The notes beneath the pieces are model-generated. The model was not told where the DNA came from. It did no database searches and worked only from the letters and a program-made list of their open reading frames with translations. From positions 7,240 to 71,239 of the forward strand of contig DATCOD010000194.1 in the NCBI GenBank assembly GCA_036564905.1: a DNA stretch of 64,000 bases. The letters run 5' to 3'. Position numbers and translations under genes: made by a program. Below are positions 2,344-60,544 of the stretch, one piece after another. Source of the stretch: Candidatus Limnocylindria bacterium (GTDB lineage Bacteria > Chloroflexota > Limnocylindria > P2-11E). Each line of letters begins with the position of its first letter. Positions within the stretch are counted from its first letter, which is position 1.

Positions 2344-2459
2344 ACTCGCTCCTCGTGGACACCCTCGAGCGGCCCGCGACCGTCACACAGTCGCAGCGGA
2401 CCGAGATCGAGGCGCAGCGCCAGGCGACGAGCGAGACCCGCCGCGCGACCGTGCCGGCG

Positions 2460-36595: not shown

Positions 36596-37659
36596 GGGTT
36601 CGTCACCAGGTCGGCGATCACCTTCGCGTCCTCGAACGTTCGACCGGCTCGCGCGTCCACCCCGTCGATCCGGCCGGTGCGGAACGCGGCGAACAGCGCC
36701 CGCTCGATCGCGTCATGCGCCGGGGTGATCCCGACGTGGTCCAGGAGCAGGGCGAGCGCGCCAACGGCACCGACCGGGCTCGCCGCTTTCTGGCCGGTGT
36801 ACTTCGGCGCCGAGCCGTGGATCGGCTCGAACATCGAGACCCGACCGGGGTGGATGTTCCCGGATGCGGCGATGCCGAGGCCGCCGCAGATCGCCGCCCC
36901 GAGGTCGGTGATGATGTCGCCGAACAGATTCGTCGTCACGATCACGCTGAACTGCTCGGGCTTCTGCACCAGCCACATGCACGCCGCGTCGACGTACATC
37001 GCGTCGTGCTCGACGTCGGGATACTCCGCGGCGACCTCCTCGAGCACATCTCGCCACAGCTGCTGGATCGGGACGGCGTTCGACTTGTCGACCAACGTGA
37101 CCTTCTTGCGGTCCACCGTGCGGGCCCGCTCGAAGGCGTATCGAGTGATGCGTTCGACCCCGCGGCGGGTGAAGACCATGTCCACCGACACACGCTCGTC
37201 GGGGGTGCCCTGATCGGTGCGCGTGCCCTGACGGCCATACACGTCCTCGGTGTTCTCGCGCATGACGAGGATGCGGATGTCATCCTCGGTCTTGTCCTTC
37301 AACGGAGAGAGCCGCGCGTCGTAGAGGGTCAGCGGTCGCAGATTGACGTACAGGTCGAGGCCGCGCCGAAAGCCGAAGATGATGTCGGCCTCGAGCATCC
37401 CGCGCGGCACCCCGGGATGGCCGACCGCGCCAAGCAGCACCGCGTCCAGCTTCTTGATCGGCTCGAGCGCCGCCGCGTCGAAGCGCCGGCCGTCGCGGAG
37501 GTACTGCTCGCCGGACCAGTCGAAGACGGTCCGCTCCGTGCGGAAGCCGAAGCGGGCTTCGCACGCGTCGAGCACGACGAGCGCCGCGTCCACGACCTCC
37601 GGGCCGATACCGTCGCCGCCGAGGATGCCGACCTTCACCGTGCGCGTGGGGCTGCTCAT
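36592..37659 (-). CDS. leuB: 3-isopropylmalate dehydrogenase family (LeuB-like; tartrate or isocitrate dehydrogenase relatives cannot be excluded)
   Basis: 'KVGILGGDGIGPEV', 'NLRPL', 'ENTEDVYG', 'NLFGDIITDLGAAICGGLGIAASGNI' are beta-decarboxylating dehydrogenase signatures. Last gene of the his transcription unit. Confidence 0.75.
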   Translation of the reverse strand: MSSPTRTVKVGILGGDGIGPEVVDAALVVLDACEARFGFRTERTVFDWSGEQYLRDGRRFDAAALEPIKKLDAVLLGAVGHPGVPRGMLEADIIFGFRRGLDLYVNLRPLTLYDARLSPLKDKTEDDIRILVMRENTEDVYGRQGTRTDQGTPDERVSVDMVFTRRGVERITRYAFERARTVDRKKVTLVDKSNAVPIQQLWRDVLEEVAAEYPDVEHDAMYVDAACMWLVQKPEQFSVIVTTNLFGDIITDLGAAICGGLGIAASGNIHPGRVSMFEPIHGSAPKYTGQKAASPVGAVGALALLLDHVGITPAHDAIERALFAAFRTGRIDGVDARAGRTFEDAKVIADLVTNP

Positions 37660-38273
37660 CGTTGGGCTGCCTCCTTCTTCTTGTCCGCGAGCGACCGCAC
37701 GACATCGTCGGCGGTGATGCCGAGCTCGGTCGCGAGCACGAGGAGCGCGTACACGACGTCGGTGAACTCCGACAGCGCGCGCTCGGGCGACTCCGCGACC
37801 GCAGCGAGGGCGAGCTCGAGCGCCTCCTCGCCGACCTTCTGCGCGATCGCGCCGCGGCCCTTCTTGAACAGCTCCGCGCTGTACGAGCGCTCCGGGAGAT
37901 CGCGCTTGCGCTCGCGCAGGAGCGCGGCGAGCTCCGAGAGCGTCCGCGCGAGCGGAGACGCGGGATCGTCCCCCCAGCAGGTCGCGCTCCCGGTATGGCA
38001 GGCCGGCCCGTTCGGGTGCGCGCGCACGAGGATCGCGTCCCCGTCGCAATCCGCCCGCAGCTCGACCGCGTGGAGCGTGTTGCCGCTCGTCTCGCCCTTC
38101 TTCCAGAGCGCGTCGCGCGAGCGGCTGTGGAAGTGGACCAGCCCGGTCCGCTCGGTCGCCTCGATCGCCGCGCGATCCATCCAGGCGAGCATGAGCACCG
38201 TGCCCGTGCCGGCGTCCTGCACGATCGCCGGCACCAGGCCGCGCTCGTCGAACCGCACGTCGGTGCCGTTCAT
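37656..38273 (-). CDS. hisI: Bifunctional phosphoribosyl-AMP cyclohydrolase / phosphoribosyl-ATP pyrophosphatase
   Basis: HisI part 'GLVPAIVQD...MLAWMDR...ALWKKGETSGN...CDGDAILV'; HisE part 'TLSELAALLRERK...SYSAELF...KVGEEALEL'. Confidence 0.9.
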   Translation of the reverse strand: MNGTDVRFDERGLVPAIVQDAGTGTVLMLAWMDRAAIEATERTGLVHFHSRSRDALWKKGETSGNTLHAVELRADCDGDAILVRAHPNGPACHTGSATCWGDDPASPLARTLSELAALLRERKRDLPERSYSAELFKKGRGAIAQKVGEEALELALAAVAESPERALSEFTDVVYALLVLATELGITADDVVRSLADKKKEAAQR

Positions 38274-39049
38274 GCGAATGCCCGCTCGGGCGGGCGCACC
38301 GGGATGCCCGCGGCGGCGAGGGCATCCTTCACGGCCCCGACCGTCAGCAGGCCGTAGTGGAAGATCGACGCCGCGAGGCCCGCTTCCGCGCCCGTCGTCC
38401 GGAAGAGCTCGACGAAATCCGCGGCGGACGACGCGCCGCCGGACGCGATGACCGGAACGTCGACGGTGCTCGCGACCGCGGCCGTGAGCGCCAGATCGAA
38501 CCCCCGCTTCGTGCCGTCGTGGTCGATGCTGTTGAGGAGCACCTCACCGGCCCCACGCGACACGCCCTCGCGCACCCACGTGAGCGCATCCATCCCCGTG
38601 GGGACGCGTCCGCCGTCGAGCACGACCTCCCAGCGCCCGTCGCCGGCCGGCCGCGCATCGACGGACAGGACCGTGGCTTGGGACCCGTACCGGCTCGCGA
38701 TCTCCGTGATCAGCCGCGGGTCGCGCACGGCCGCGCTGTTCACCGCGACCTTGTCGGCGCCGACCCGCAGGATCTCGCCCGCGAGGTCCGCCGAGCCGAT
38801 CCCGCCGCCGACCGTGAACGGGATGAACAGCTGGTCGGCGACGGCCGAGGCGAACTCGACCATCGTGCGGCGCTTCTCGTGCGACGCGTTGATGTCAAGG
38901 AAGACGAGCTCATCGGCGCCCTCGCGGTCGTAGCGCTTCGCCAGCTCGATCGCATCCCCGACGTCCTGCGTGTCGACGAAGCGCACGCTCTTCACGACCT
39001 TGCCGTCGCGGACGTCGAGGCACGGGATGACCCGCTTCGCGAGCGTCAC
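38270..39049 (-). CDS. hisF: Imidazole glycerol phosphate synthase cyclase subunit
   Basis: 'KRVIPCLDVRDGKVVKSVRF', 'GADELVFLDI', 'FTVGGGI', 'DGTKRGFD'. GTG start overlaps the hisH stop. Confidence 0.9.
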   Translation of the reverse strand: MTLAKRVIPCLDVRDGKVVKSVRFVDTQDVGDAIELAKRYDREGADELVFLDINASHEKRRTMVEFASAVADQLFIPFTVGGGIGSADLAGEILRVGADKVAVNSAAVRDPRLITEIASRYGSQATVLSVDARPAGDGRWEVVLDGGRVPTGMDALTWVREGVSRGAGEVLLNSIDHDGTKRGFDLALTAAVASTVDVPVIASGGASSAADFVELFRTTGAEAGLAASIFHYGLLTVGAVKDALAAAGIPVRPPERAFA

Positions 39050-39675
39050 AGCGCCCCGACGCGAGCGGTCGCGTCGACGAACGCATTCAGGAGCCGAAGG
39101 CCGTTCGCGCCCGACTTCTCGGGGTGGAACTGGACGCCGAGCACGCTGCCGGCGCCCGCGATGGCGCACCGCGTCCCGCCATAGTCGACCGTGCCGAGCA
39201 CATCGCTCGCTCGCGCGGGCTCGGGCACGAAGCTGTGCACGAAATAGAACTGGTCGCCGTCCCGCGTGTCACGCAGCCACGGGTGCGCGCCGGCGAGGCC
39301 CAGCGCGTTCCAGCCGATCTGGGGCAGGCGCGGCACGTCCTTCATCTGGACGACCGTTCCCGGGAGGAAGCCAAGGCCCCGCTCGCCGCGGTCCTCGTCG
39401 CTCCCTTCGAACAGGAGCTGCATACCGACGCAGATCCCGAGGATCGGCACGCCCCGCTCGCGCGCGTCGCGCAGGGCTGGCGCGAAGCCGAACCGGTCGA
39501 ACTCCCGCGCGCAGTGGCCGAAGTTCCCGACTCCGGGGAGCACGATCGCGGTCGCGTCGCGCAGACCAGCCGGCTCGCGAACCAGCTCGGCCCGGGCGCC
39601 GACGGTCGTGAGCGCCTTCCGCACGCTCGCGAGGTTGCCCACGCCGTAATCGACGATCGCGATCGGGCTACGCAC
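39046..39675 (-). CDS. hisH: Imidazole glycerol phosphate synthase glutaminase subunit
   Basis: 'IAIVDYGVGNLASV', 'PGVGNFG', 'GICVGMQLL' (catalytic Cys), 'VQFHPEKS'. Confidence 0.9.
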   Translation of the reverse strand: MRSPIAIVDYGVGNLASVRKALTTVGARAELVREPAGLRDATAIVLPGVGNFGHCAREFDRFGFAPALRDARERGVPILGICVGMQLLFEGSDEDRGERGLGFLPGTVVQMKDVPRLPQIGWNALGLAGAHPWLRDTRDGDQFYFVHSFVPEPARASDVLGTVDYGGTRCAIAGAGSVLGVQFHPEKSGANGLRLLNAFVDATARVGAL

Positions 39676-40270
39676 CCACGCGTCCCTTGCTGGATGGCGC
39701 CTTGCCCGCGCGCCGCGGATCCGTGCGTGCCGCGGTATCGATGACCCGGCCGAGCCCCTTCATGGTCGCCTCGAGCAGGTGATGCGGGTTGCCGCCGCGG
39801 ATCTGCGTGACGTGCAGCGTGAGCCGGCCGGTCTGCGCGAGCGACTCGAGGAAGTGCGGCATGAGCGTCGTGTCGAAGGTGCCGACGATCCGCTCCGATG
39901 GCGCGAGGTCGTAGGCGAACGCCGGACGGCCGCCGAGGTCGATGGCCACATTCACGAGGCACTCGTCCATCGGGACGGTGAGCGACGCGAACCGCACGAT
40001 CCCGAGGCGATCGCCGAGTGCCTGGTCGAGCGCGCGACCGAGCACGAGCCCGAGATCCTCGACCGTGTGGTGCTGGTCCACCTGCAGATCCCCCGTGGCC
40101 TTGACGCGCAGATCCATGAGCCCATGGACCGCCATCAGCTCGAGCATGTGGTCCATAAAGGGAATTCCTGTCGCAACGCGCGCCTGACCCTTCGCGTCGA
40201 GCTTCAGCGTGATCGCGACATCGGTCTCCTTGGTCTTCCGCGCTCGGGACCCCGTCCGGGTGGGCGTCAC
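39668..40270 (-). CDS. hisB: Imidazoleglycerol-phosphate dehydratase, monofunctional (no HAD/HolPase domain)
   Basis: 'RKTKETDVAITLKLD', 'TGIPFMDHMLE', 'DQHHTVED', 'GNPHHLLEA'. 200 aa. Confidence 0.9.
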   Translation of the reverse strand: MTPTRTGSRARKTKETDVAITLKLDAKGQARVATGIPFMDHMLELMAVHGLMDLRVKATGDLQVDQHHTVEDLGLVLGRALDQALGDRLGIVRFASLTVPMDECLVNVAIDLGGRPAFAYDLAPSERIVGTFDTTLMPHFLESLAQTGRLTLHVTQIRGGNPHHLLEATMKGLGRVIDTAARTDPRRAGKAPSSKGRVGA

Positions 40271-41370
40271 GCCGCGGCCGCCTTGAAGATCGAATCGATC
40301 GCGGCGACGACGCGGCCGTTCTCGGCCGGAGTTCCGATCGATACTCGCAAGCACCGGTCGCAACCGGGCCACGACGACACGTCGCGGAGCAGGATGCTGT
40401 GCTCGAGGAATTTCGCGTGCACCTCGGCGGGGGTCCGATCGGCGAGCCGGAAGAGGATGAAGTTGGTGACCGACGGGAACGCCTCGACCCCCGGCGCGCG
40501 CTGGAGCGCCGCGTAGACGCGGTCGCGCTCCCTCGCGCACTGCGCGATCCGCCGCGCGACGTCATCGTCGCGTTGCGCGATCCGGCCGCCGACGACCGTG
40601 GTGAGCGGGCTCACGTTATATGGCAGCTGCACGGCACGGAAGATCTCCGCCACGCGCGGGTGCACGATCAGCAACCCGAGACGGAGCCCCGCGGCGGCGC
40701 GCACTTTCGAGAAGGTCTTGGTCACGATGATGTTCGGATGCGCCGGCATGGCCGGAACGATCGTGTTGCCCGCGAAGTCGCTGTAGGCCTCGTCGACGAG
40801 GATCACCGTCTCGGGGTATCGCTCCGCCGCCGCCAGGATGATCGCGTCGTCGATGAGATTCCCCGTCGGATTGTTCGGCGTCGTGAAGCACACGATGTGC
40901 GGCTTCGCCCGGTCCAGCGCGGCGAGCACGCGCTCCTTGGTCACGAGATACGGAAGGCCGATGTGCTCCTCCGCGACGGTGCCGCCGGCGATCTGCGTGA
41001 GCCGGCCGTGCATCGTGTACGTCGGCTGGAAGAGCAGCGTGCTGCGGCCATGCCCGCCGAAGACGAGGAACACGTTGAGGAGCACCTCGTTGCTCCCGTT
41101 GCCGAAGATGAGCTGATCGGCCGCGACGCCGAAGCGTTTCGCGAGGCTCAGGCGCAGGTCCGCGCTCGCCTGCGCGGTCGGATAGCGGTTGAGGAGGATC
41201 GCCTCGAGCTCGGCGGGCGACAAATAGGCGCTGACCGGGTTGGGCTCGGCCCACTCGTTCGCGTTCACCCTGACGTCGGCCGCCATCTGCTGCGTGCGGT
41301 ACGCCTGGAACGCCCCGAGGTCGTCGCGCGGGCGGGGCAGCTGGTCGCTCACCTTCATAGCCTGCCACAC
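40267..41370 (-). CDS. hisC: Histidinol-phosphate aminotransferase
   Basis: 'ANEWAEP', 'FTTPNNPTG', PLP-Lys region 'TKTFSKVRAAAGLRLG'. Start may be the internal M at 41358. Confidence 0.85.
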   Translation of the reverse strand: MWQAMKVSDQLPRPRDDLGAFQAYRTQQMAADVRVNANEWAEPNPVSAYLSPAELEAILLNRYPTAQASADLRLSLAKRFGVAADQLIFGNGSNEVLLNVFLVFGGHGRSTLLFQPTYTMHGRLTQIAGGTVAEEHIGLPYLVTKERVLAALDRAKPHIVCFTTPNNPTGNLIDDAIILAAAERYPETVILVDEAYSDFAGNTIVPAMPAHPNIIVTKTFSKVRAAAGLRLGLLIVHPRVAEIFRAVQLPYNVSPLTTVVGGRIAQRDDDVARRIAQCARERDRVYAALQRAPGVEAFPSVTNFILFRLADRTPAEVHAKFLEHSILLRDVSSWPGCDRCLRVSIGTPAENGRVVAAIDSIFKAAAA

Positions 41371-41388
41371 GCGCCGCCGGAACGAACG

Positions 41389-42630
41389 CTAGCCGCGCAG
41401 CTCCATCGAGGCGGCGTGGAACTCCATGCCTTCGTGCTTCGCGATGGCCGAGCCGGCCCGCGCCGCCGCCGCGATGTTCCGGCCCGCGGTCACCTCGGTG
41501 GTCCAGTGGACGAAATCCTCGACCCGCAGCGGCGATGCCCACCGCGCCGTGCCGCCGGTCGGCAGGCAGTGATTGGACCCGGCGACGTAGTCGCCGAACG
41601 CGACGGCCGTCCGGGTGCCGACGAACACCGCGCCCGCGTTCCGCGCTCGCCCGACGAGCCGCGCGGCCCGTGCCCCGGCGAGATGGAGGTGCTCCGGCGC
41701 GGCGAACGCGGCCGCCTCCACCGCCGCTTCGAGCGACGGCGCCCGATACAGGCCGATGGCGCGGCCACCCCCCAGGCGGGAGATGACCGCGCGCACCACC
41801 GCGAGGATCCCGTCGTCGTCGCTGAGCAGCGCGGCGAACGGCCGGCCGCCGTGCTCGGCCTGGGCCTCGAGATCCAGGACGATCGCCGCGGGATCGGCAT
41901 CCTTCGATGCGATGACCACGAGCTCGCTCGGTCCCTGGAGCGCGTCGATGCCGACATCCGCGGAGACGAGCCACTTCGCCGCGGTGGTGTACGCGTTGCC
42001 CGGCCCGACGATCTTGTCGACGGCGTCGAGCGTCTTCGTGCCGTACGCGAGCGCCGCGACGGCCGCCGCTCCGCCGGCGCGGTAGAGACCGCGCGCGCGC
42101 ACCTTCGTCGCAGCGTACGCGAGGGCCGGGTCGATGGCCCCATCGGACGGCATCGGCGACACGAGGACGAGGTCGCCGACCTCCGCGACACGCGCCGGCA
42201 CGCCGATCATCAGCGCGGTCGATGGGTATCCGACGGTCCCGCGCGGGACGCATCCGCCGACGCGCGCGAGCGCTCGGGGCACGAGCACCTCGCTGAACGC
42301 GGCGCCGCGATGCGCGATCCGCTTCGGCTTCTGCGGTCGATGGAAGCCGAGGATCGCGTCATGGGAGCGATCGAGCGCGGAACGCAGCTCGGACGGGCAG
42401 GCCCGCGCCGCCGCGCGGAGCGATCGCGCGTCGATCCAGAGATCCTTCGGCCGCGCGCCCGGGTGGTCGAATCGGCGCACGTTCGCGAGGACCGCGGCGT
42501 CGCCCCGCCGGCGGACATCGGCGACGATCCGTTGCGTCGCCCGGACGACCGCCGCGTCGAAGACCGCGGTGGCACGGCGCCGCGTGACGTCGCGGCGGAA
42601 GCCCGCGAGATCGCCGACGCGCGCGTTCAT
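41389..42630 (-). CDS. hisD: Histidinol dehydrogenase
   Basis: 'KIVGPGNAYTTAAK', 'QGPSELVVIA', 'DLEAQAEHGG', 'VAGSNHCLPTGGTARWASPL'. Alternative start at 42642. Confidence 0.9.
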   Translation of the reverse strand: MNARVGDLAGFRRDVTRRRATAVFDAAVVRATQRIVADVRRRGDAAVLANVRRFDHPGARPKDLWIDARSLRAAARACPSELRSALDRSHDAILGFHRPQKPKRIAHRGAAFSEVLVPRALARVGGCVPRGTVGYPSTALMIGVPARVAEVGDLVLVSPMPSDGAIDPALAYAATKVRARGLYRAGGAAAVAALAYGTKTLDAVDKIVGPGNAYTTAAKWLVSADVGIDALQGPSELVVIASKDADPAAIVLDLEAQAEHGGRPFAALLSDDDGILAVVRAVISRLGGGRAIGLYRAPSLEAAVEAAAFAAPEHLHLAGARAARLVGRARNAGAVFVGTRTAVAFGDYVAGSNHCLPTGGTARWASPLRVEDFVHWTTEVTAGRNIAAAARAGSAIAKHEGMEFHAASMELRG

Positions 42631-43268
42631 CGCGCCGCCCATGCTTCGAGCCGGGACGCGAGCGCCGCGATGCGCTCGCGATCGCGCGCGTAGCTCACGC
42701 GATTCGCGATGAGCCGCGCCGTGCAGACCGCGATCTCCTCGATGATCGCGAGCCGGTTCTCCTTGAGCGTCCGGCCGGTGCTGACGAGGTCCACGATCCA
42801 ATCCGCCAGCCCGACCTGCGGCGCGAGCTCGACCGAGCCGCCGAGCTTGATGATCTCCACCTGGATGCCGCGTCCCTGGAAGTGTCGCTCGGCGACCCGC
42901 GGGTATTTCGTCGCGACCTCGAGCGACCCGAGGTGCCGGTACTCGTCGAGGGAACGATCGACCGTGCCCGCCGGTGCCGCCACGACGAAGCGGCATCGCC
43001 CGTAGCGGAGATCGACGAGCTCGAGGACATCCGCGTCGCTCTCGAGGAGCACGTCCTTGCCGACGATGCCGATGTCGGCCGCGCCGTGGGCCACGTGCGT
43101 GGGCACATCGCCGGGCCGCGCGAGGATGTATTCGACGTCCGTGCCCGGGATGACGAGCCGGCGGCCGCCATCGTCGAGCTCGTCCGTCGCGAGGCCCGCG
43201 GCCGCGAGCGCGACCTTCGTGTCGGCGAGCAGGGTGCCCTGGGCGAGCGCGATGCGAAGCGCCCTCAC
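42627..43268 (-). CDS. hisG: ATP phosphoribosyltransferase, short (HisZ-dependent) form
   Basis: 213 aa; 'LRIALAQGTLLADT', 'RPGDVPTHVAHGAADIGIVGKDVL', 'DLVSTGRTLKEN'. No C-terminal regulatory domain. GTG start overlaps the hisZ stop. Confidence 0.85.
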   Translation of the reverse strand: MRALRIALAQGTLLADTKVALAAAGLATDELDDGGRRLVIPGTDVEYILARPGDVPTHVAHGAADIGIVGKDVLLESDADVLELVDLRYGRCRFVVAAPAGTVDRSLDEYRHLGSLEVATKYPRVAERHFQGRGIQVEIIKLGGSVELAPQVGLADWIVDLVSTGRTLKENRLAIIEEIAVCTARLIANRVSYARDRERIAALASRLEAWAAR

Positions 43269-44455
43269 CGCGGCCCGCCGGTCAGCGCCGCGATGACCGC
43301 TTCGAGCTCGCGCGCGACCCCTTCGTACTCCACGTGCCCGTCGTCGATCACGCGGGCGCGGCGGACATCCTGGCCCGCGCCCTCCGCGATATCGCCGATC
43401 GCGACCGCGATGCCGGCGCCACGCAGCGCGACCGCGACCCGGAGCGTCGTCGCGTCGTCGACGTGCGGCGCGAGGAGCAGGAGCGGCGACTCGGCCTGCG
43501 CCTGCCACCCCGCGGCGACGAGGGCCTGGTGCAGATGGGGGACCGCGATCCCGAAGCCCGTCGCCGGTCGATCGGCGCCGAACCGGGCGAGGAGGCCGTC
43601 GTACCGTCCACCGGCCGCGATCGGGAATCCGAGATCCGCGACGGTGACCTGGAACACCACGCCGGTGTAATACGGGAGCGCCGGAACGAGCCCGAGGTCG
43701 AACCGGACGGCGCCACCGGCGCCGGCCGCCTCGAGGAGCGGCCGAAGGGCATCGAGCGTGTCGAGCGCGCTCTGCGACGCCGCGGGCGCGCCGGCGCGGG
43801 CGCCGGCGAGATCCGCCGACCGGTGGCGAAGGCCGCGCTCGAGCGCCGCGCCACGAGCGGCGCTCAGGCCCGCCGCGCGCGCGAGCGACAGCGTGCCGAC
43901 CAGATCCCCGCTGCGCGCCGCGGCGCTCACCCCCGCGCGCGCATCGGCCGGGAGCTCCGCGATGAAGCCGTCGAGGAAGCCGACATGACCGATGTCGATA
44001 TCCGGTGCGAGCAGCCCGCAGCGCGCGAGCGCGTCGGCGAGCAGCGCGATGACCTCGGCGTCCGCGCGCAGGGTCGCGTCGCCGATCAGCTCGACGCCCG
44101 CCTGGTCGTATTCGCGCTCCGATCCACGCATGGAGGCCTCTTCGCGGAAGATCGGCGCGAAGTACGCGAGCCGCAGCGTCGCGTCGGCTTGCCGGTAGCG
44201 CTGCGCGACCACGCGCGCCACCGCGGTCGTGACATCGGGACGGAGCGCGAGCAGCTGACCATCCCGATCGAGGAACCGCAGCGTGCGCCGCTCGTCCACC
44301 GTGATCGCGCCCTGCGCGAACTCCACCGTCGGCGGCTCGAGCGGCACGTAGCCGTAGCCGGCGAACGCGTTCATCAGCGTGCGCTCGATCACGTGAAGCT
44401 CGCGCGCCTCCGTGGGCAGGATGTCGCGGAAGCCGCGGGGGAGCGCGTTCTTCAC
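43265..44455 (-). CDS. hisZ: ATP phosphoribosyltransferase regulatory subunit (HisRS paralog)
   Basis: 'LPRGFRDILP' and 'YFAPIFREE...REYDQAGVELIG' are class II aaRS-like core motifs. No anticodon-binding domain. Lies directly upstream of the short hisG. Confidence 0.8.
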   Translation of the reverse strand: MKNALPRGFRDILPTEARELHVIERTLMNAFAGYGYVPLEPPTVEFAQGAITVDERRTLRFLDRDGQLLALRPDVTTAVARVVAQRYRQADATLRLAYFAPIFREEASMRGSEREYDQAGVELIGDATLRADAEVIALLADALARCGLLAPDIDIGHVGFLDGFIAELPADARAGVSAAARSGDLVGTLSLARAAGLSAARGAALERGLRHRSADLAGARAGAPAASQSALDTLDALRPLLEAAGAGGAVRFDLGLVPALPYYTGVVFQVTVADLGFPIAAGGRYDGLLARFGADRPATGFGIAVPHLHQALVAAGWQAQAESPLLLLAPHVDDATTLRVAVALRGAGIAVAIGDIAEGAGQDVRRARVIDDGHVEYEGVARELEAVIAALTGGPR

Positions 44456-45267
44456 GCGGGCTGCGGGAAGGCGTCGACGCGTTCGAGGCCTCCCACCGCT
44501 GCGCGAAGCTCGTGGAGCGCGCGGATCCGCGCATCCGGGACGATCGTCCCGGCGGCGCCACCGTTCGTCCGGTCGAGCCAGATGCTGCGCAGCCCGGCAC
44601 GCCGCGCGCCCACGACGTCACGCTCAAGGCTATCTCCGACCATCACCGCCTCGGTGCGCTCGACGTCGAGCGCGTCCAGCGCCGCGCGGAAGATCAGCGG
44701 ATCGGGCTTGCCCGCGCCGACCTCGCCTGAGATCACGATCGCGGCGAATCGCGATGCGAGCGTGGTGGCCGCGAGCTTCTCGCGCTGCACGTCCGGCGCT
44801 CCGTTGGTGACGAGGGCGAGCCGGTGATCGCGGCCGACATCGTCGAGCGTCGCCTCGGCCTCGGGGTCGATCGGACACAGGGCCCGGCGCGCCGTGCGAT
44901 ACACCGCCACGAGCTCGTCGGCCAGCGCGCCATCCGTGATGCCCGCGGCCTCGAGTCCGCCGCTCCAGACCGCGCGGCGGAAGCCCGGCACGTACCGGCG
45001 CAGCGCCGCGAGGCCCGGCTGGTCGCCGGCGAACTCACCCCAGAGCGCCTCGCCCCACCAGATCCCCAGCGCATCCGCGTACGCGAACACTTCCGAGGAG
45101 CGGAAAAGTGCCTCCGCCGTCTCACCGGCCGCGACCTGAATGACACCGCCGTCGACCCCGGCCCGGCGGGCGGCGTGCGCGCTCGTCTGCTCCAGCGCAC
45201 GGAGGGTGGCCTCATCTTCGAGCAGCAGGGTGTTGTCGAGGTCGAAGAGGATCGCGCGGATCGGCAT
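44452..45267 (-). CDS. HAD-superfamily (subfamily IA-like) hydrolase, first gene of the his operon
   Basis: 'ILFDLDNTLL' (DxDxT motif I), 'LVTNG' (motif II), 'GKPDP...MVGDSLERDVVGARRAG' (motifs III/IV). Confidence 0.75.
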   Translation of the reverse strand: MPIRAILFDLDNTLLLEDEATLRALEQTSAHAARRAGVDGGVIQVAAGETAEALFRSSEVFAYADALGIWWGEALWGEFAGDQPGLAALRRYVPGFRRAVWSGGLEAAGITDGALADELVAVYRTARRALCPIDPEAEATLDDVGRDHRLALVTNGAPDVQREKLAATTLASRFAAIVISGEVGAGKPDPLIFRAALDALDVERTEAVMVGDSLERDVVGARRAGLRSIWLDRTNGGAAGTIVPDARIRALHELRAAVGGLERVDAFPQPA

Positions 45268-45344
45268 TGGTCGAGTTTAGGGAGCGGAGCGCGTGTCCGG
45301 CCGAGGGCTTGGCCGCGGTGCGCCGCAGTGGTACCGTAACGGCG

Positions 45345-45431
45345 ATGCGCTCCGTCGTCCTCGGCATCATCGTTATTGAGTCCCTTATCGGGGGCTTGAA
45401 CGACGCTGGGAGGCGCACCACCACCGCGTAG
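45345..45431 (+). promoter_or_regulatory. Leader peptide ORF 1 (MRSVVLGIIVIESLIGGLNDAGRRTTTA), a Val/Leu/Ile-rich attenuator leader
   Basis: Read directly from sequence. Eight of eleven codons after Met-Arg-Ser encode Val/Leu/Ile. The peptide overlaps the antiterminator segment 'ctgggaggc'. Confidence 0.7.
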
Positions 45432-45457
45432 CGAGAACAGAGACCGGAACCACCAGA

Positions 45458-45486
45458 GACCTCCCAGGACATGGGAGGTCTTTTTG
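45458..45486 (+). terminator. Rho-independent terminator of attenuator 1
   Basis: 'gacctccca ggacat tgggaggtc ttttt' is a perfect 9-bp GC-rich stem followed by a T-run. The 5' half can alternatively pair with 'tgggagg' inside the leader ORF, forming an antiterminator. Confidence 0.7.
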
Positions 45487-45584
45487 ATTCCGGGAAGTTC
45501 AGGCGAGGGAGGGCGTTGCCCGACCGAGCCGCAAGGGACCCACGAACGGAGCAAGCCGCAGCTGGCGAAGAGAGAGGGACACAA

Positions 45585-45779
45585 ATGGATGCCCGACGCG
45601 AGCTGGCCAAGCGACTGGCAAGGCTGGGTATGCACTTCGAGGGCGAGCGCCTCGACCATGCCGAGCGGATCGTCCACGCGCATGTTCCGCATCACACCTC
45701 GCTCACCGACCTGGTCCTCATGACGATCTGCGTCGAGGCCTACCGCAAGAGCGACCTCGACCTGCCGGCCTGGGTCTGA
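45585..45779 (+). CDS. Conserved small protein (64 aa), paralog of the ilvC-leuA intergenic small protein; function unknown
   Basis: 'MDARRELAKRLARLGMHFEGERLDHAERIVHAHVPHHTSLTDLVLMTICVEAYRKSDLDLPAWV'. RBS 'gagaggga' 7 nt upstream. About 50% identical to the 49659-49844 ORF. Confidence 0.65.
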   Translation: MDARRELAKRLARLGMHFEGERLDHAERIVHAHVPHHTSLTDLVLMTICVEAYRKSDLDLPAWV

Positions 45780-45789
45780 ACCGGTAGCC

Positions 45790-46380
45790 ATGGACGATCA
45801 GGCCGGGCGCACGTACGCGATCGCGTTCCTCGGCGAGGCGCGCACGCCGATCAGGACATCGGTGGTGCGGCTCGGCGCGGACGACGATCCGCGGGTCGTC
45901 GCGGAGTCGCTGCGCCACGCGGAGTCCGACCGGCTGAGCGATCCGATCCTGTCGGCGGGCCTAGGCGGGCCTCGGGATCCGGAGCGCTCCCTTCATCTGA
46001 CGGCGCTCCACGCGGAGCAGGCCGTCCGGCTCGGCCGCGCGTTGAACGGTCCCGGGCGCGTCACCGCGTTCGCGGACCTCGGCCCGTACTGCTTCGTGCT
46101 CGGCCGGCCGACGGAGGAGATCCGGATCTTCTGCCGGACGATCCTCGGGCCGCTGGCCGAGAGCGCGCAGCGCGACGAGCTGCGCACGCTCGAGGAATTC
46201 CTCCGGGCCCACGGGAGCGTGAACGCGGTCGCCCGCGCGCTCTTCCTGCACCGGAACACCGTGCGTCAGCGTCTCAAGCGGATCGGCGAGCTCACCGGCG
46301 CCGACCTCGAGGACGCCGACCAGCGCATGCAGCTCTACCTCGCGGTCCTCGGCCAGAACGCCCTGCGGGCGCTGGCGTGA
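45790..46380 (+). CDS. PucR/CdaR-family transcriptional regulator (C-terminal HTH_30)
   Basis: C-terminus 'LRTLEEFLRAHGSVNAVARALFLHRNTVRQRLKRIGELTG' is the PucR-type HTH. Starts 8 nt after the small-protein stop. Confidence 0.7.
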   Translation: MDDQAGRTYAIAFLGEARTPIRTSVVRLGADDDPRVVAESLRHAESDRLSDPILSAGLGGPRDPERSLHLTALHAEQAVRLGRALNGPGRVTAFADLGPYCFVLGRPTEEIRIFCRTILGPLAESAQRDELRTLEEFLRAHGSVNAVARALFLHRNTVRQRLKRIGELTGADLEDADQRMQLYLAVLGQNALRALA

Positions 46381-46460
46381 TCGGGACTGTGCAGAGTGCA
46401 CCGACTTCCAGGTGGAGCGTTGACGCGACCGCGGTCCGTCCGGCACTGTCCACCTTCCTG

Positions 46461-46535
46461 ATGCGGAACCTCGTGGTCGTCGTCCTTATCGGCATCGTCC
46501 TCATTGAGGACGAGGGGAGACGGCTGGGAGGCTAG
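46461..46535 (+). promoter_or_regulatory. Leader peptide ORF 2 (MRNLVVVVLIGIVLIEDEGRRLGG), the ilvB attenuator leader
   Basis: Twelve of fourteen codons after Met-Arg-Asn are Val/Leu/Ile. The stop lies inside the 'ctgggaggctag' antiterminator arm. Confidence 0.75.
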
Positions 46536-46627: not shown

Positions 46628-48337
46628 ATGGCGACACTTGCGACGACCGAGCTGCCCGAGGCGAGCACCGTCGTTCACCGCGGCGCCGACCTGGTCTGGC
46701 GGGCCCTCGAGCACGCCGGCGCGGACGTGGCGTTCGGCTACCCCGGTGGCGCGTGCCTGCCGCTGTACGACGCGCTCCCCGATCACCCGCGCGTGCATCA
46801 CGTCCTCGTGCGCCACGAGCAGGGCGCCGCGCACATGGCCGACGGCTACGCGCGCGCGACCGGACGGGTCGGCGTGTGCGTCGCCACCTCCGGCCCCGGC
46901 GCGACCAATCTCGTGACCGGGCTCGCCTGCGCATACATGGACAGCGTGGCGCTGGTCGCGATCACCGGCCAGGTCTCCACGCCGATGATGGGCCGGGACG
47001 CCTTCCAGGAGACCGACGTGCTCGGCATGGTCGGGCCGATCACCAAGCATTCGTTCCTCGTCGAGCGGGTCGAGGACATCGAGCCCACGATCGCGCGCGC
47101 GTTCGAGGTGGCGCGCGCGGGCCGCCCCGGACCGGTGGTGGTCGACATCCCGAAGGACATCCAGCTCCGGACCGCCACGGCGCGCTCCCGCCCGACAGAC
47201 CCGACGACCGCTCCGCAGGGCGCCGACGCGAGCGAGCTCGATCGGGCGGCGGCGCTGCTCGCGTCCGCGCGGCGGCCGGTGATCATCGCCGGCCACGGCG
47301 TGCGCCTCGGGCGCGCCCACCGCGAGCTGCGCGCGCTCGCCGAGCGCATCGACGCGCCGGTCGTGACCACACTGCTCGGCATCGGCGCGATCGCCGAGGA
47401 CCATGCGCTCGCGGCCGGGATGCTCGGGATGCACGGCAGCGCCAACGCGAACCGCATGGTGAACGACGCGGACGTGATCCTGGGCGTGGGGCTGCGCTTC
47501 GACGATCGCGTGACCGGGAAGATCAGCGCCTTCGCGCCGAACGCCAAGATCATCCATGCCGACCTCGACGCGACCCAGATCGGCAAGAACGTGCCCACCG
47601 CGATCGGCATCGTTGCCGACGCGGGAGCGGTGCTGTTCGCGCTCGCCGCCCGCCTCCAGCGCGTGTCGCGGCCGGACTGGTCCGGACGTCTCGCGACCGC
47701 TCGTTCCCGCCCGCGGCTCGCGGCATACGAGGACCGGGTCGAGCTCCCGCCGCGCCTGGTCATCCGCGCGATCCGTGAGACCGCGAGCGACGACGCGTAC
47801 TTCGTCGCCGACGTGGGTCAGCATCAGATGTGGGCCGCGCAGCATCTGCGCCTCACGAACCCGGACCGGTTCCTCACCTCGGGCGGCCTCGGCGCGATGG
47901 GCTATGCCCTGCCGGCCGCGATCGGCGCGCAGATGGGCCGGCCGACGTCAGAGGTGTGGGCCATCGCCGGCGATGGGGGCGCGCAGATGACGTTCCAGGA
48001 GCTCGGGACCGCGGTGCAGGAGCGCACGCCGGTGAAGCTCGCGATCATGAACAACGGCTACCTCGGGATGGTCCGCCAGTGGCAGCAGCTGTTCCACGAC
48101 GGTCGGATCTCACAGACCCCGATCAGCAGCCCGGACTACGTGAAGCTCGCCGACGCGTACGGCGTGCTCGGCATCATGGTCGACCGTCGCGCCGACCTCG
48201 GCCCCTCGCTCGCGCGCGCTCGCGCGCACCAGGGGCCCGTCGTGCTCGACATCCGCATCGAGCGCGAGGCCAACGTGTGGCCGATCGTGCCGCCTGGCGG
48301 CGCGAACGCGGACCTCATCGAAGAGCCGGTCTCGTGA
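46628..48337 (+). CDS. ilvB: Acetolactate synthase (AHAS) large subunit
   Basis: 'GYPGGACLPLYDAL', 'RHEQGAAHMADGYARATGRVGVCVATSGPGATNLVTG', TPP motif 'GDGGAQMTFQELGTA...NNGYLGMVRQWQ'. RBS 'gaaggagg' 8 nt upstream of the ATG. Confidence 0.9.
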   Translation: MATLATTELPEASTVVHRGADLVWRALEHAGADVAFGYPGGACLPLYDALPDHPRVHHVLVRHEQGAAHMADGYARATGRVGVCVATSGPGATNLVTGLACAYMDSVALVAITGQVSTPMMGRDAFQETDVLGMVGPITKHSFLVERVEDIEPTIARAFEVARAGRPGPVVVDIPKDIQLRTATARSRPTDPTTAPQGADASELDRAAALLASARRPVIIAGHGVRLGRAHRELRALAERIDAPVVTTLLGIGAIAEDHALAAGMLGMHGSANANRMVNDADVILGVGLRFDDRVTGKISAFAPNAKIIHADLDATQIGKNVPTAIGIVADAGAVLFALAARLQRVSRPDWSGRLATARSRPRLAAYEDRVELPPRLVIRAIRETASDDAYFVADVGQHQMWAAQHLRLTNPDRFLTSGGLGAMGYALPAAIGAQMGRPTSEVWAIAGDGGAQMTFQELGTAVQERTPVKLAIMNNGYLGMVRQWQQLFHDGRISQTPISSPDYVKLADAYGVLGIMVDRRADLGPSLARARAHQGPVVLDIRIEREANVWPIVPPGGANADLIEEPVS

Positions 48338-48591
48338 CCGACCCGCAGCACACCTTCGAGCTCACGGTCGACGCCGTGCCCGGCGCGATCGAGCGCGTGC
48401 TGTCGGTCGTGCGCCGCAGGCGGCTCGGCCTGCGCTCGTTCCGGGCGGACGCCGGCAGTCAGGGGCAGTGGAACGTCCGCATCGAGGCCGGCGCCGTCCC
48501 AACGGAAGCGGCCCTTGCGCTCAGACAATTCGCATCGCTCATCGACGTTCGCAACGCGCGCCTGTCCGATGGCGATCGCACCGCGAGCTAA
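48334..48591 (+). CDS. ilvN: Acetolactate synthase small subunit, short ACT-only form (85 aa)
   Basis: 'HTFELTVDAVPGAIERVLSVVRRRRLGLRSF' is the ACT domain of IlvN/IlvM. GTGA overlap with ilvB. Confidence 0.65.
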   Translation: MTDPQHTFELTVDAVPGAIERVLSVVRRRRLGLRSFRADAGSQGQWNVRIEAGAVPTEAALALRQFASLIDVRNARLSDGDRTAS

Positions 48592-48609
48592 AGAAAGCAG
48601 GAGGAAGAG

Positions 48610-49659
48610 ATGGCCACCATCTATTACGACAAGGACGCGGATCCGCGGGCGCTGGCCGGCAAGACGATCGCCGTGATCGGCTACGGGAGCCAGGGCCACG
48701 CCCACGCCCAGAACCTGCGCGACAGCGGGCACTCCGTCGTCATCGGCCTGGCCGCCGGCAGCAAGAGCTGGGCGACCGCCGAGCGGGACGGCTTCGACGT
48801 CCGCGAGGTTGCGGACGCCGCGCGCAACGCCGACGTGATCGTCATCCTCGTGCCTGACCCGAAACATCGGTCGGTCTATGAACGGATCGCGCCGTCGCTC
48901 GGGCGCGGGCGGACCATCGTCGTGGCGCACGCGTTCTCCGTCCATTTCAAGGAGATCGTCGCGTCGCCCGACATCGACGTCGTGCTCATCGCGCCGAAGG
49001 CCCCGGGGCACCGGATGCGCGAGCTCTTCGTCGAGGGCAAGGGCGTGCCCGCGCTCGTCGCGGTGCACCAGGACGCCAGCGGCCACGCCAAGCAGACGGC
49101 GCTCGCGTACGCGCAGGCCGTCGGCTCGACGCGCGCGGGCGTCATCCAGACCACGTTCGCGGAGGAGGTCGAGACCGATCTCTTCGGCGAGCAGACGGTC
49201 CTGTGCGGCGGTATCTCCGAGCTGGTGAAGGCCGGTTTCGAGACCCTGGTCGAAGCCGGCTACCAGCCGGAGATCGCGTACTTCGAGTGCCTGAACGAGA
49301 TGAAGCTCATCGTCGACCTCATGTACGAGGGCGGGCTCTCGTACATGCGGTACTCGGTGAGCGACACGGCCGAGTACGGCGACTACGTGTCCGGCAAGCG
49401 GGTCATCGACGCGCGCGTTCGGCAGACCATGCGTGACGTGCTCGCCGAGATCAAGGACGGCAGCTTCGCCAAGCGGTGGATCGCCGAGGCCCGGGCGGGT
49501 GCGCCCGAGCTGCTCGCGACGCGTGCCCGCGAGCAGGACTCCCAGATCGAGCGGGTCGGACGATCGCTCCGCTCGATGATGCCCTGGCTCCCGAAGCGCG
49601 AGTTCGGCCAGCCCGCGGCGCCGGACGCGCCGAAGCGCGAGACCGCGGGGGTCGCGTAA
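48610..49659 (+). CDS. ilvC: Ketol-acid reductoisomerase
   Basis: '[21 protein letters not shown]', 'LVPD', 'GHRMRELF', '[17 protein letters not shown]'. Strong RBS 'gcaggaggaagag'. Confidence 0.95.
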
Positions 49660-49844
49660 TGGAGGCGTTCCGCGACCGGCTCGCGCGGCTCGGCATGCGC
49701 TTCGGCGACGAGCAGCTCGGCCACGCCCACTCGCTGGTCACGCGCTACGGATTCGTCCCGGAGGAGCTCACCGACATCCAGCTCATGACCATCTGCGTCG
49801 AGGCCTACCGCCATCCGGATTCCGACCTGCCGTTGTGGATCTGA
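49659..49844 (+). CDS. Conserved small protein (61 aa), paralog of the 45585-45779 ORF; translationally coupled between ilvC and leuA
   Basis: '[61 protein letters not shown]'. Its ATG overlaps the ilvC TAA (TAATG). Confidence 0.65.
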   Translation: MEAFRDRLARLGMRFGDEQLGHAHSLVTRYGFVPEELTDIQLMTICVEAYRHPDSDLPLWI

Positions 49845-53268
<3,424 letters not shown>

Positions 53269-53272
<4 letters not shown>

Positions 53273-54513: not shown

Positions 54514-54532
54514 GCTGACCGGCCGCACGCTC

Positions 54533-60539: not shown

Positions 60540-60544
60540 CGCGC

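What the first reader, a model, noticed from the sequence alone, without database searches (positions are those of the whole stretch)
44452..45267. HAD-IA hydrolase translationally coupled to hisZ at the head of the his operon: candidate histidinol-phosphate phosphatase
hisB in this operon is the monofunctional 200-aa dehydratase. No PHP-type (HisJ/K) or IMPase-type (HisN) phosphatase is present in the operon. The first gene is a HAD hydrolase (DxDxT 'FDLDNTLL'), and its stop overlaps the hisZ GTG. Its position makes it the best candidate for the missing HolPase step. It would be a distinct HAD type from the DDDD domain fused to enterobacterial HisB.
Basis: inference. Interest (0 to 1): 0.5.

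Follow-up and report, generated by a model that had tools for sequence, protein, structure and literature searches.

The report
Candidate histidinol-phosphate phosphatase in his operon
A small phosphatase gene fused to the front of the histidine-synthesis operon of a soil Chloroflexota bacterium is probably the enzyme for the one pathway step that is otherwise unaccounted for. It belongs to the same protein family as the Bacillus serine-pathway phosphatase YsaA. The function is inferred from gene neighbourhood, not measured.

Summary
Window 44452-45267 (-) encodes an intact 271-aa HAD-IA phosphatase. Its TGA overlaps the hisZ GTG (GTGA). It heads hisZ-G-D-C-B-H-F-IE, hisB is dehydratase-only, and no PHP, IMPase or DDDD phosphatase lies in the operon or the window.

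New evidence:
- The protein belongs to a clade found only in Ca. Limnocylindria (Chloroflexota), marked by the cap motif GIWWGE[AG]LWG.
- In 31 of 32 evaluable species-level loci it abuts his genes, in three arrangements: head of operon, convergent with hisIE, or directly after hisC. The other flank varies (at least 12 homology groups).
- Wider-family homologues (31-48% identity, many phyla) had no his neighbour in 41 loci of at least 5 kb.
- That wider family includes Paenibacillus proteins named YsaA or phosphoserine phosphatase. B. subtilis YsaA is reported to hydrolyse phosphoserine and histidinol phosphate.

Best reading (about 0.6): a YsaA-like amino-alcohol-phosphate phosphatase recruited as the histidinol-phosphate phosphatase of this class.

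Caveats:
- hisA is absent from the operon and a leuB-like gene is appended.
- The convergent arrangement looks ancestral.
- Another HolPase elsewhere in the genome could not be excluded.
- No activity data exist.

This is a new variant of a known kind, of moderate interest.

The parts
44452..45267 (-). HAD-IA phosphatase gene (271 aa), YsaA-like, Limnocylindria-specific clade; candidate histidinol-phosphate phosphatase
   Evidence: ORF and translation; Pfam and NCBIfam; 100% identical protein P0001 named HAD family hydrolase [Candidatus Limnocylindria bacterium]; AF2 model pLDDT 94.6
45229..45243 (-). HAD motif I, D9-L-D11-N-T13 (nucleophile Asp and general acid/base Asp)
   Evidence: Invariant in 77 clade members and in the wider family
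44863..45225 (-). Large all-helical C1 cap domain (about residues 15-135), the substrate-specificity module
   Evidence: Predicted helices 17-36, 40-56, 61-67, 71-74, 84-107 and 113-129. In the best stretches reported for this protein, NCBIfam models cover only about residues 97-257, so most of the cap is left out
45031..45066 (-). Clade signature in the cap: G68-I-W-W-G-E-A-L-W-G-E-F79. W70, W71 and G72 are clade-specific; E73, L75 and W76 are shared with the wider family
   Evidence: Alignments; group comparison; the pattern WWGE[AG]LWG retrieved almost only Limnocylindria/Chloroflexota contigs (one is labelled Ca. Acidiferrales)
44800..44814 (-). HAD motif II region L-V-T154-N-G
   Evidence: Invariant T154, N155, G156
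44707..44709 (-). HAD motif III lysine K187
   Evidence: Invariant; codon AAG read
44617..44637 (-). HAD motif IV G211-D212-S-L-E-R-D217 (Mg2+ ligands)
   Evidence: G211, D212 and D217 invariant in the clade
44452..44455 (-). GTGA overlap: HAD stop TGA and hisZ start GTG
   Evidence: Sequence. In the other co-directional loci the tblastn start of hisZ lies from 4 nt before to about 3 nt after the end of the HAD ORF, which fits the same overlap; the start codons were not read there
43265..44455 (-). hisZ (ATP-PRT regulatory subunit)
   Evidence: PF13393, 223 bits; TIGR00443, 253 bits
42627..43268 (-). hisG, short form
   Evidence: TIGR00070, 192.5 bits
41389..42630 (-). hisD
   Evidence: TIGR00069, 347.6 bits
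40267..41370 (-). hisC (makes histidinol phosphate, the proposed substrate)
   Evidence: TIGR01141, 251.8 bits, best hit, just under its cut-off of 276.55
39668..40270 (-). hisB, monofunctional imidazoleglycerol-phosphate dehydratase
   Evidence: PF00475; NF002116, 244 bits; matches only the C-terminal half of the bifunctional model NF003937
39046..39675 (-). hisH
   Evidence: TIGR01855, 195 bits
38270..39049 (-). hisF (not hisA)
   Evidence: TIGR00735, 323 bits against a cut-off of 294.55
37656..38273 (-). hisIE
   Evidence: NF002747, 231 bits against a cut-off of 187
45268..45344 (.). 77-nt divergent control region between the HAD start and the start of a conserved Val/Ile/Leu-rich small ORF that leads the ilv-leu cluster on the + strand
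   Evidence: Sequence; conserved small ORF; no Rfam family, no T-box

Best explanation
The gene encodes a Mg2+-dependent HAD-IA phosphatase of the YsaA-like family. These enzymes act on small 2-amino-alkyl phosphates of the form R-CH(NH3+)-CH2-OPO3. In the class Limnocylindria one branch of this family acquired a distinctive cap: WWG replaces SS(W/F) at residues 70-72, and there are new conserved acidic residues at D18 and D134. That branch became physically tied to the histidine genes.

Proposed mechanism: HisC makes L-histidinol phosphate. The phosphatase binds its phosphate at the DxDxT / T / K / GDxxxD core. D9 attacks to form an aspartyl-phosphate, and D11 protonates the leaving histidinol. 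The closed helical cap selects the imidazole-amine side chain. HisD then oxidises the released histidinol. In this genome the enzyme is made from the same mRNA as HisZ-HisIE, by termination-reinitiation at the GTGA overlap, so it is co-regulated with the pathway.

Shown: the gene, motifs, fold class, family relationships and conserved linkage to his genes. Inferred: the substrate, the roles of the cap residues, and co-transcription with translational coupling.
For: 1. Intact HAD-IA enzyme with all four catalytic motifs. The AF2 model has pLDDT 94.6, with a Rossmann core and a six-helix C1 cap.
2. Context: of 35 species-representative loci carrying the clade signature, 32 have enough flank to judge, and 31 have his genes next to the HAD gene.
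3. There are three arrangements. HAD>hisZGDCBHF(IE) occurs in 9 loci including the window, with hisZ starting at or within a few nt of the HAD stop. HAD> <hisIE...hisZ is convergent and abutting. hisC>HAD occurs in 5 loci with gaps of about 15-30 nt, which places the producer of the substrate directly upstream.
4. The opposite flank of the HAD gene falls into at least 12 unrelated homology groups among 27 loci. The linkage to his genes therefore survives heavy local rearrangement.
5. Control: wider-family homologues at 31-48% identity from Planctomycetota, Poribacteria, Paenibacillus, Thermodesulfobacteriota and metagenomes. None of 86 loci, 41 of them at least 5 kb, has a his neighbour.
6. 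Clade-specific conserved cap changes against the wider family are N12, D18, W70, W71, G72, D134 and D232. These are acidic and aromatic residues of the kinds that form the HolPase fingerprints of paHisN and nmHisN (PMC10804674).
7. Family chemistry: the window protein is 38% identical over its full length to Paenibacillus P0379, and the profile-profile probability is 100%. P0379 relatives are named YsaA or phosphoserine phosphatase. [quoted passage not shown]
8. HisB lacks a phosphatase domain, and no PHP, IMPase or DDDD candidate lies in the window or in 462 kb of related his-locus flanks by motif scan.
9. Precedent: lineage-specific HAD HolPases with private caps have been found repeatedly, namely HisB-N, paHisN, toHisN/nmHisN and Bifidobacterium Bbr_0982. 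hisN is still missing in 20% of prototrophs.
Against: - There are no enzymatic or genetic data for any clade member.
- The nearest named relatives are phosphoserine phosphatases. B. subtilis keeps YsaA alongside a separate PHP HolPase, so family membership alone does not imply a HolPase role.
- The arrangement that looks ancestral on a simple NJ tree is convergent, not co-transcribed. The co-directional arrangement differs from it by a single inversion of the his block, so the two are not fully independent associations.
- Operon membership is an imperfect guide here. hisA is missing and a leuB-like gene is appended.
- One clade member (L032) sits away from his genes.
- HisN (IMPase type) is common in another Chloroflexota class, Chloroflexia (PMC5516325). 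Whole Limnocylindria genomes could not be searched for it.
- R127, family-wide and possibly a carboxylate binder, is retained. That would also suit phosphoserine.
Confidence: 0.6

Rival explanations
1. It is the phosphoserine phosphatase of these bacteria, the YsaA/SerB equivalent for the last step of serine synthesis. Its place next to the his genes is inherited synteny or shared amino-acid regulation, and histidinol phosphate is dephosphorylated by another enzyme elsewhere.
For: It is 38% identical over its full length to Paenibacillus proteins named YsaA or phosphoserine phosphatase. JGI names two clade members phosphoserine phosphatase. E73 and R127, conserved family-wide, are retained. 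The window is an amino-acid-biosynthesis supercluster in which a leuB-like gene also rides on the his operon. serB is itself a frequent gap.
Against: No serA or serC gene is linked in any locus examined. The linkage is specifically to his genes, including hisC>HAD pairs, and persists while the other flank changes. The wider family, which carries the YsaA names, shows no his linkage. The clade has its own conserved cap substitutions, which argues for a changed specificity.
Confidence: 0.15
2. It is a general house-keeping or promiscuous HAD phosphatase (nucleotidase, sugar-phosphate or metabolite-repair enzyme of the TIGR02253 / YjjG / NANP-like group) with no dedicated role in histidine synthesis. 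Its adjacency to the his genes is an accident of ancestry in one bacterial class.
Against: Linkage in 31 of 32 loci against a highly variable opposite flank. Two separate rearrangements both produced apparent co-transcription with his genes: the overlap with hisZ, and hisC inserted upstream. All family matches to nucleotidase and NANP models are sub-threshold and, for this protein, leave out most of the cap.
Confidence: 0.15
3. It is a bifunctional phosphatase that supplies both the histidinol-phosphate and the phosphoserine phosphatase steps. This is a variant of the main explanation.
For: B. subtilis YsaA is reported to act on both substrates. Both substrates share the R-CH(NH3+)-CH2-OPO3 skeleton (PMC5764234). 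hisN and serB are the commonest joint gaps in prototrophs.
Against: There are no data on the serine pathway genes of these genomes. The clade-specific cap changes suggest specialisation rather than breadth.
Confidence: 0.2

Closest known systems
Bacillus subtilis YsaA (SerB-equivalent HAD phosphatase) and its Paenibacillus orthologues
   Same: Same family. It is 38% identical over the full length, cap included, to Paenibacillus P0379, and the profile-profile probability is 100%. It has about 260 aa, the same motif spacing and the shared cap residues G68, E73, L75, W76, W101 and R127. YsaA is reported to hydrolyse histidinol phosphate among amino-alcohol phosphates.
   Different: YsaA's physiological role is serine synthesis, and B. 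subtilis has a separate PHP-type HolPase. The Paenibacillus gene is not near his genes. The Limnocylindria clade has WWG instead of SS(W/F) at 70-72, D18, D134 instead of F/Y, and N12 instead of D. The B. subtilis sequence itself could not be obtained, so the link rests on annotation names.
Archaeal HAD HolPases nmHisN (Nmar_1556) and toHisN (TON_0887)
   Same: Monofunctional HAD phosphatases with one large all-helical cap inserted after motif I. They were found through their position among his genes, between hisC and hisB in Nitrosopumilus (PMC10804674).
   Different: Their fingerprint Y24-D25-K56-E64 has no obvious counterpart at the same offsets. Taxa differ (Thaumarchaeota and Thermococcales against Chloroflexota).
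paHisN (PA0335) family, SerB-like HAD HolPases of beta/gamma-proteobacteria
   Same: A HolPase that evolved from, and is still widely mis-annotated as, a phosphoserine phosphatase (PMC5764234, PMC10804674). This is the same evolutionary logic proposed here.
   Different: It is a different HAD subfamily, with two small inserts and a D16-D18-Y47 fingerprint. No SerB-type NCBIfam model appears among the 25 best hits of this protein.
HisB-N, the DDDD / HAD-IIIA phosphatase domain of enterobacterial bifunctional HisB
   Same: Same superfamily, the same catalytic aspartates and the same pathway step.
   Different: HisB-N is capless or minimal-cap IIIA and is fused to IGPD. Here HisB is IGPD-only and the candidate is a separate capped IA enzyme. 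TIGR01662 scores 35.7 against a cut-off of 44.6.
Bifidobacterium HisN (Bbr_0982)
   Same: A lineage-restricted HAD HolPase whose specificity domain is not conserved outside its clade, so sequence-based annotation missed it.
   Different: It was identified by mutant fitness and complementation. It was not compared at sequence level here.
TIGR02253 (CTE7) / NANP (HDHD4) / PH1655 group of HAD-IA hydrolases
   Different: The score of 122.6 is below the family cut-off of 169.75. For the window protein the reported best stretch covers only residues 126-254. Sequence identity to the solved structures is 24-27%. None of them is a HolPase.

Membership tests
HAD superfamily phosphatase | Motif I DxDxT/V, motif II S/T, motif III K/R, motif IV (G)DxxxD or DD | tested here: met
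   D9-L-D11-N-T13, T154, K187 and G211-D212...D217 are invariant in 77 relatives. PF00702 scores 78 bits against a cut-off of 26.4.
HAD subfamily IA (C1 cap) | Helical cap inserted between motifs I and II; match to the subfamily model | tested here: met
   The AF2 model has helices 17-129 between strand 1 and the rest of the Rossmann core. TIGR01549 scores 54.7 against 23.3, and TIGR01509 scores 44.2 against 29.4.
YsaA-like phosphoserine/amino-alcohol-phosphate phosphatases | Full-length homology, cap included, to YsaA orthologues | tested here: inconclusive
   It is 38% identical over 257 aa to Paenibacillus P0379. A 72%-identical relative of P0379 is named YsaA, and many are named phosphoserine phosphatase. 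B. subtilis YsaA itself could not be aligned, because its sequence is not held.
YsaA-like phosphoserine/amino-alcohol-phosphate phosphatases | Phosphatase activity on phosphoserine and/or histidinol phosphate | not testable with these tools
   Known only from the literature for B. subtilis YsaA (PMC8002221 citing Koo 2017).
TIGR02253 (CTE7) HAD hydrolases | Score at or above the curated cut-off of 169.75 bits | tested here: not met
   122.6 bits, with the best stretch covering residues 126-254 only. Wider-family members reach 126-151 bits, also below the cut-off.
YjjG/YfnB pyrimidine nucleotidases (TIGR02254) | Score at or above 159.9 bits | tested here: not met
   101.3 bits.
HisB-N type HolPase (DDDD / HAD-IIIA) | Capless IIIA architecture; match to IIIA models; usually fused to IGPD | tested here: not met
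   TIGR01662 scores 35.7 against 44.6. There is a large cap. HisB here matches only the IGPD half of NF003937.
nmHisN/toHisN archaeal HolPases | Single large helical cap; fingerprint Y24, D25 (or R), K/R56, E/D64 | not testable with these tools
   The architecture is similar (against the description).
paHisN (SerB-like) HolPases | HAD-IB-like fold with two small inserts; fingerprint D16-D18-Y47 | not tested
   No SerB-type model appears among the 25 best NCBIfam hits shown. There was no direct alignment.
PHP-type (HisJ/K) or IMPase-type (HisN) HolPases | PHP or IMPase fold and motifs | tested here: not met
   The candidate is a HAD protein. No PHP or IMPase motif occurs in the window or in 462 kb of related loci. 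The whole genome could not be searched.
Histidine-biosynthesis gene (functional membership) | Conserved linkage and co-transcription with his genes across species | tested here: met
   31 of 32 evaluable loci, in three arrangements, against none of 41 control loci of at least 5 kb in the wider family.

The most novel reading that the evidence does not exclude
The Limnocylindria clade is one visible tip of something broader. On this reading the widespread YsaA-like HAD-IA family supplies the 'missing' histidinol-phosphate and/or phosphoserine phosphatase in many phyla, which would explain a sizeable share of the hisN and serB gaps that GapMind still reports in prototrophs. The family has 241 clusters at 50% identity with E of 1e-30 or better. 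It occurs in Planctomycetota, Poribacteria, Sumerlaeia, Spirochaetes, Thermodesulfobacteriota, Dehalococcoidia and Bacillota. The WWGE clade would then be a further independent specialisation of a HAD enzyme on histidinol phosphate.
Probability: 0.2. Interest if true: 0.7.

Novelty: new variant of a known kind. Interest (0 to 1): 0.5.

Why it matters
Histidinol-phosphate phosphatase is the one step of histidine synthesis that has been invented many times. It is still unassigned in about a fifth of bacteria and archaea known to make their own histidine (GapMind 2026 preprint). That gap leads genome-based metabolic models to call such organisms auxotrophs wrongly.

A specific, testable candidate for a whole uncultivated class of soil and freshwater Chloroflexota would close the gap there. 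It would also add a further case of a HAD phosphatase retuned by its cap. It points as well to the YsaA-like family as a place to look for missing hisN and serB genes elsewhere.

The claim is limited. It rests on conserved gene neighbourhood and family chemistry, not on an assay, and it concerns one bacterial class.

Tried and rejected
- A T-box or other leader RNA upstream of the HAD gene, which would have tied it to histidine regulation: no Rfam family reaches gathering score anywhere in the window. In 45150-45850 there are only two insignificant matches. The intergenic space is mostly taken by an ilv-leu leader on the other strand.
- Sigma-70 promoter and terminator scan of 37000-46500: nothing useful.
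- Koo et al. 2017 (the primary source for YsaA) is not held. Their result is cited second-hand from PMC8002221 and PMC7062661.
- Search for an alternative HolPase (HisN, PHP, HisB-N) or SerB elsewhere in Limnocylindria genomes: not possible. Only motif scans of the window and of 462 kb of related loci were done, and both were negative.
It was repeated with 8 sequences.
- Rejected: 'independent re-association' as an argument for the head-of-operon arrangement. It differs from the convergent one by a single inversion of the his block.
- Rejected: pseudogene or spurious ORF. All 34 full ORFs examined are intact with their catalytic residues.
Full report
**What is in the window.** The window has 71% G+C. 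A protein 100% identical to the candidate is named HAD family hydrolase of 'Candidatus Limnocylindria bacterium', Chloroflexota. On the minus strand lies a tightly packed gene row:
- a 271-aa HAD gene (44452-45267)
- hisZ (43265-44455)
- short-form hisG (42627-43268)
- hisD (41389-42630)
- hisC (40267-41370)
- IGPD-only hisB (39668-40270)
- hisH (39046-39675)
- hisF (38270-39049)
- hisIE (37656-38273)

The HAD stop and the hisZ start share GTGA. Similar 4-nt overlaps join hisZ/hisG, hisG/hisD and hisC/hisB. No PHP, IMPase or DDDD-type phosphatase is in the operon. None was found in the rest of the window by six-frame motif scans and Pfam scans of the unnamed ORFs.

Two facts qualify it. hisA is not in the operon: the single PF00977-type gene is hisF (TIGR00735, 323 bits). 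A 3-isopropylmalate-dehydrogenase-like gene (36592-37638) follows hisIE after 17 nt. The row is therefore neither complete nor pure, and position alone is weaker evidence than it first looks.

**The family has two layers.**
- Close relatives (51-77% identity) share a striking cap motif, GIWWGE[AG]LWG. A scan of one genome per species (185,579 species) with that motif and with DLDNTL[LI][LM]E returned 35 loci. All are from Limnocylindria or unclassified Chloroflexota MAGs, except one contig labelled Acidiferrales.
- An exhaustive HMMER search of 1.84 billion cluster representatives shows a much larger family. It finds 241 clusters with E of 1e-30 or better, full-length, at 34-47% identity. Members come from Planctomycetota, Phycisphaerales, Poribacteria, Sumerlaeia, Spirochaetaceae, Thermodesulfobacteriota, Dehalococcoidia and Paenibacillus.
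- The window protein is 38% identical over 257 residues to Paenibacillus segetis P0379. The clade and wider-family profiles align with 100% probability.
- Relatives of P0379 are named 'putative uncharacterized hydrolase YsaA' and, in UniRef, 'Phosphoserine phosphatase'.
- According to PMC7062661 and PMC8002221, B. subtilis YsaA is the SerB equivalent. [quoted passage not shown] 2017, which I could not read directly).

The family's known chemistry is therefore hydrolysis of small 2-amino-alkyl phosphates, and histidinol phosphate is one of them.

**Gene neighbourhood, the main new evidence.** I mapped the window's nine proteins onto all fetched loci with tblastn and rebuilt the HAD ORFs. Of the 35 species loci, 32 have enough flank to judge, and 31 of those have his genes directly beside the HAD gene. 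Three arrangements occur:
- A: HAD>hisZ-G-D-C-B-H-F-IE, co-directional. This is found in the window, L006, L007, L008, L013, L029, L034, L036 and L038. In the other A-type loci hisZ begins at or within a few nucleotides of the end of the HAD ORF, which fits the overlap read in the window.
- B: HAD> <hisIE-F-H-B-(C)-D-G-Z, convergent. The two 3' ends abut or overlap. This is the most common arrangement.
- C: hisC>HAD> <hisIE... (L019, L025, L026, L031, L039). Here hisC has left its usual place between hisD and hisB and sits 15-30 nt upstream of the HAD gene on the same strand.

The one clear exception is L032, where the gene lies between a polyketide-cyclase-like gene and a thiolase gene. In L012 a beta-lactamase-family gene is inserted between HAD and hisIE.

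The other flank of the HAD gene is not conserved. Among 27 loci the nearest 1.5 kb falls into at least 12 unrelated groups.

As a control I examined 86 loci of wider-family homologues at 30-48% identity, from five look-ups and one metagenome scan. None has a his gene nearby, including the 41 loci with at least 5 kb. The linkage to his genes is therefore specific to the WWGE clade. It is maintained against frequent local rearrangement.

**How much weight this carries.** A simple NJ tree puts arrangement B at the base, with A forming one or two derived groups and C one or two. A can be produced from B by a single inversion of the his block, so A and B are not independent associations. After that inversion, however, the spacer was lost, and the whole his operon in this lineage now appears to depend on the promoter in front of the HAD gene. 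In arrangement C a separate event placed the gene that makes histidinol phosphate immediately in front of the HAD gene. Both derived states create apparent co-transcription of the phosphatase with his genes. This is what one expects if the enzyme serves the pathway, and histidinol-phosphate hydrolysis is the pathway's only phosphatase step.

**Sequence changes that accompany the linkage.** I compared 77 clade members with 32 wider-family members.
- The catalytic core and several cap residues are shared: G68, E73, L75, W76, W101 and R127.
- The clade has fixed N12 (D elsewhere), D18, W70-W71-G72 (S-S-W/F elsewhere), D134 (F/Y elsewhere) and D232 (N elsewhere).
- Acidic and aromatic residues are what contact the imidazole and amine in the experimentally defined HolPase fingerprints of paHisN (D16, D18, Y47) and nmHisN (Y24, D25, K56, E64) (PMC10804674).

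I have no coordinates or docking, so the placement of these residues at the substrate pocket is an inference.

**Comparison with what is known.** HolPases have arisen repeatedly inside the HAD superfamily:
- HisB-N, which is capless IIIA
- paHisN, which is SerB-like and long mis-annotated as phosphoserine phosphatase
- toHisN and nmHisN, which have a single large helical cap and were found between hisC and hisB
- Bifidobacterium Bbr_0982, which has a private cap

These are described. There are also the PHP and IMPase families. The present case works like these but is not a member of HisB-N, TIGR02253 or YjjG, whose defining scores it fails. Membership of the nmHisN/toHisN group could not be tested. 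Its nearest characterised relative is YsaA. I found no paper linking a YsaA-like protein to a his operon or to Chloroflexota histidine synthesis. I therefore file it as a new variant of a known kind.

**Verdict.** The most likely reading (about 0.6) is that this is the histidinol-phosphate phosphatase of Limnocylindria, derived from a YsaA-like amino-alcohol-phosphate phosphatase. In this genome it is co-expressed with the operon through the GTGA junction. It may retain phosphoserine activity.

The rivals are a dedicated phosphoserine phosphatase (about 0.15) and a generic HAD phosphatase linked by history (about 0.15). The decisive missing pieces are an activity assay or complementation, and a whole-genome census for other HolPases and SerB in this class.

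Interest is moderate (0.5). The missing-hisN problem is real and long-standing. But the solution proposed here is clade-limited, is of a familiar type, and rests on inference.

Noticed in passing
window 45345-45490 (+): A small ORF, MRSVVLGIIVIESLIGGLNDAGRRTTTA*, is rich in Val/Ile/Leu and uses the rare GTT and ATT codons. It is followed by a GC-rich hairpin (GACCTCCCAGGACATGGGAGGTC) and TTTTT, upstream of the ilv-leu cluster (ilvB, ilvN, ilvC, leuA, ilvD, ilvA, leuC, leuD at 46628-56520). It looks like a branched-chain amino-acid leader-peptide attenuator. The peptide is conserved in 8 related loci, and the hairpin plus T-run in at least L034 and L036. Rfam gives only a weak Phe_leader match (17.9 bits, E 3.1). 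The peptide is unusually well conserved for a leader, so a small membrane peptide is an alternative.
   Followed up: partly
window 45588-45779 (+) and 49659-49844 (+): Two paralogous small ORFs of 63 and 61 aa are 58% identical (E 8e-20). One lies just upstream of a PucR/CdaR-type regulator (45790-46380), the other between ilvC and leuA. Neither matches any NCBIfam model. Their function is unknown, and they may be small regulators or partners in the ilv-leu cluster.
   Followed up: partly
window 36592-37638 (-): A 3-isopropylmalate-dehydrogenase-like gene (NF002898, 365.6 bits against a cut-off of 393) is appended 17 nt after hisIE. The neighbouring ilv-leu cluster has no leuB. So leuB appears to ride on the his operon.
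   Followed up: partly
window 37656-45267 (-), and loci L001-L040: hisA is absent from the his operon here and in all related loci mapped. hisH is followed directly by hisF. In several relatives hisC is also absent from the operon. In-operon hisC copies of the convergent type are only 47-51% identical to the window's hisC, against 59-65% for the hisC copies placed upstream of the HAD gene. This suggests two hisC lineages.
   Followed up: no
window 2355-4670 (+): The flavin-dependent thymidylate synthase ThyX is interrupted by an intein with an HNH endonuclease. Pfam matches are Thy1 (167.8 bits, in two stretches), Intein_splicing (42.5 bits) and HNH (30.9 bits).
   Followed up: partly
window 16919-20965 (+): A cluster of two HGD-D family subunits (2-hydroxyacyl-CoA dehydratase / benzoyl-CoA-reductase-like) with at least one BcrAD/BadFG-type ATPase activator (19365-20165; the gene at 20162-20965 looks similar by eye but was not scanned), next to enoyl-CoA hydratase, SDR and thiolase genes. 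The substrate is unknown.
   Followed up: no
window 58491-61759 (-): A fused aconitase-family protein (682 aa) lies next to an HMGL-like (homocitrate / isopropylmalate-synthase-type) gene. This is a second 2-oxoacid chain-elongation module beside the ilv-leu cluster.
   Followed up: no
loci L001, L003, L004, L009, L011 and others (convergent type): In the convergent arrangement the HAD ORF runs 10-90 nt into the 3' end of hisIE on the opposite strand. This gives variable C-terminal tails (ASPRGS...) that are antisense translations of hisIE. It is unclear whether these tails are real or whether the two transcripts interfere.
   Followed up: no
whole window: No Rfam family reached its gathering score anywhere in the 64 kb, on either strand, so no RNA gene or riboswitch was detected there.
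   Followed up: no
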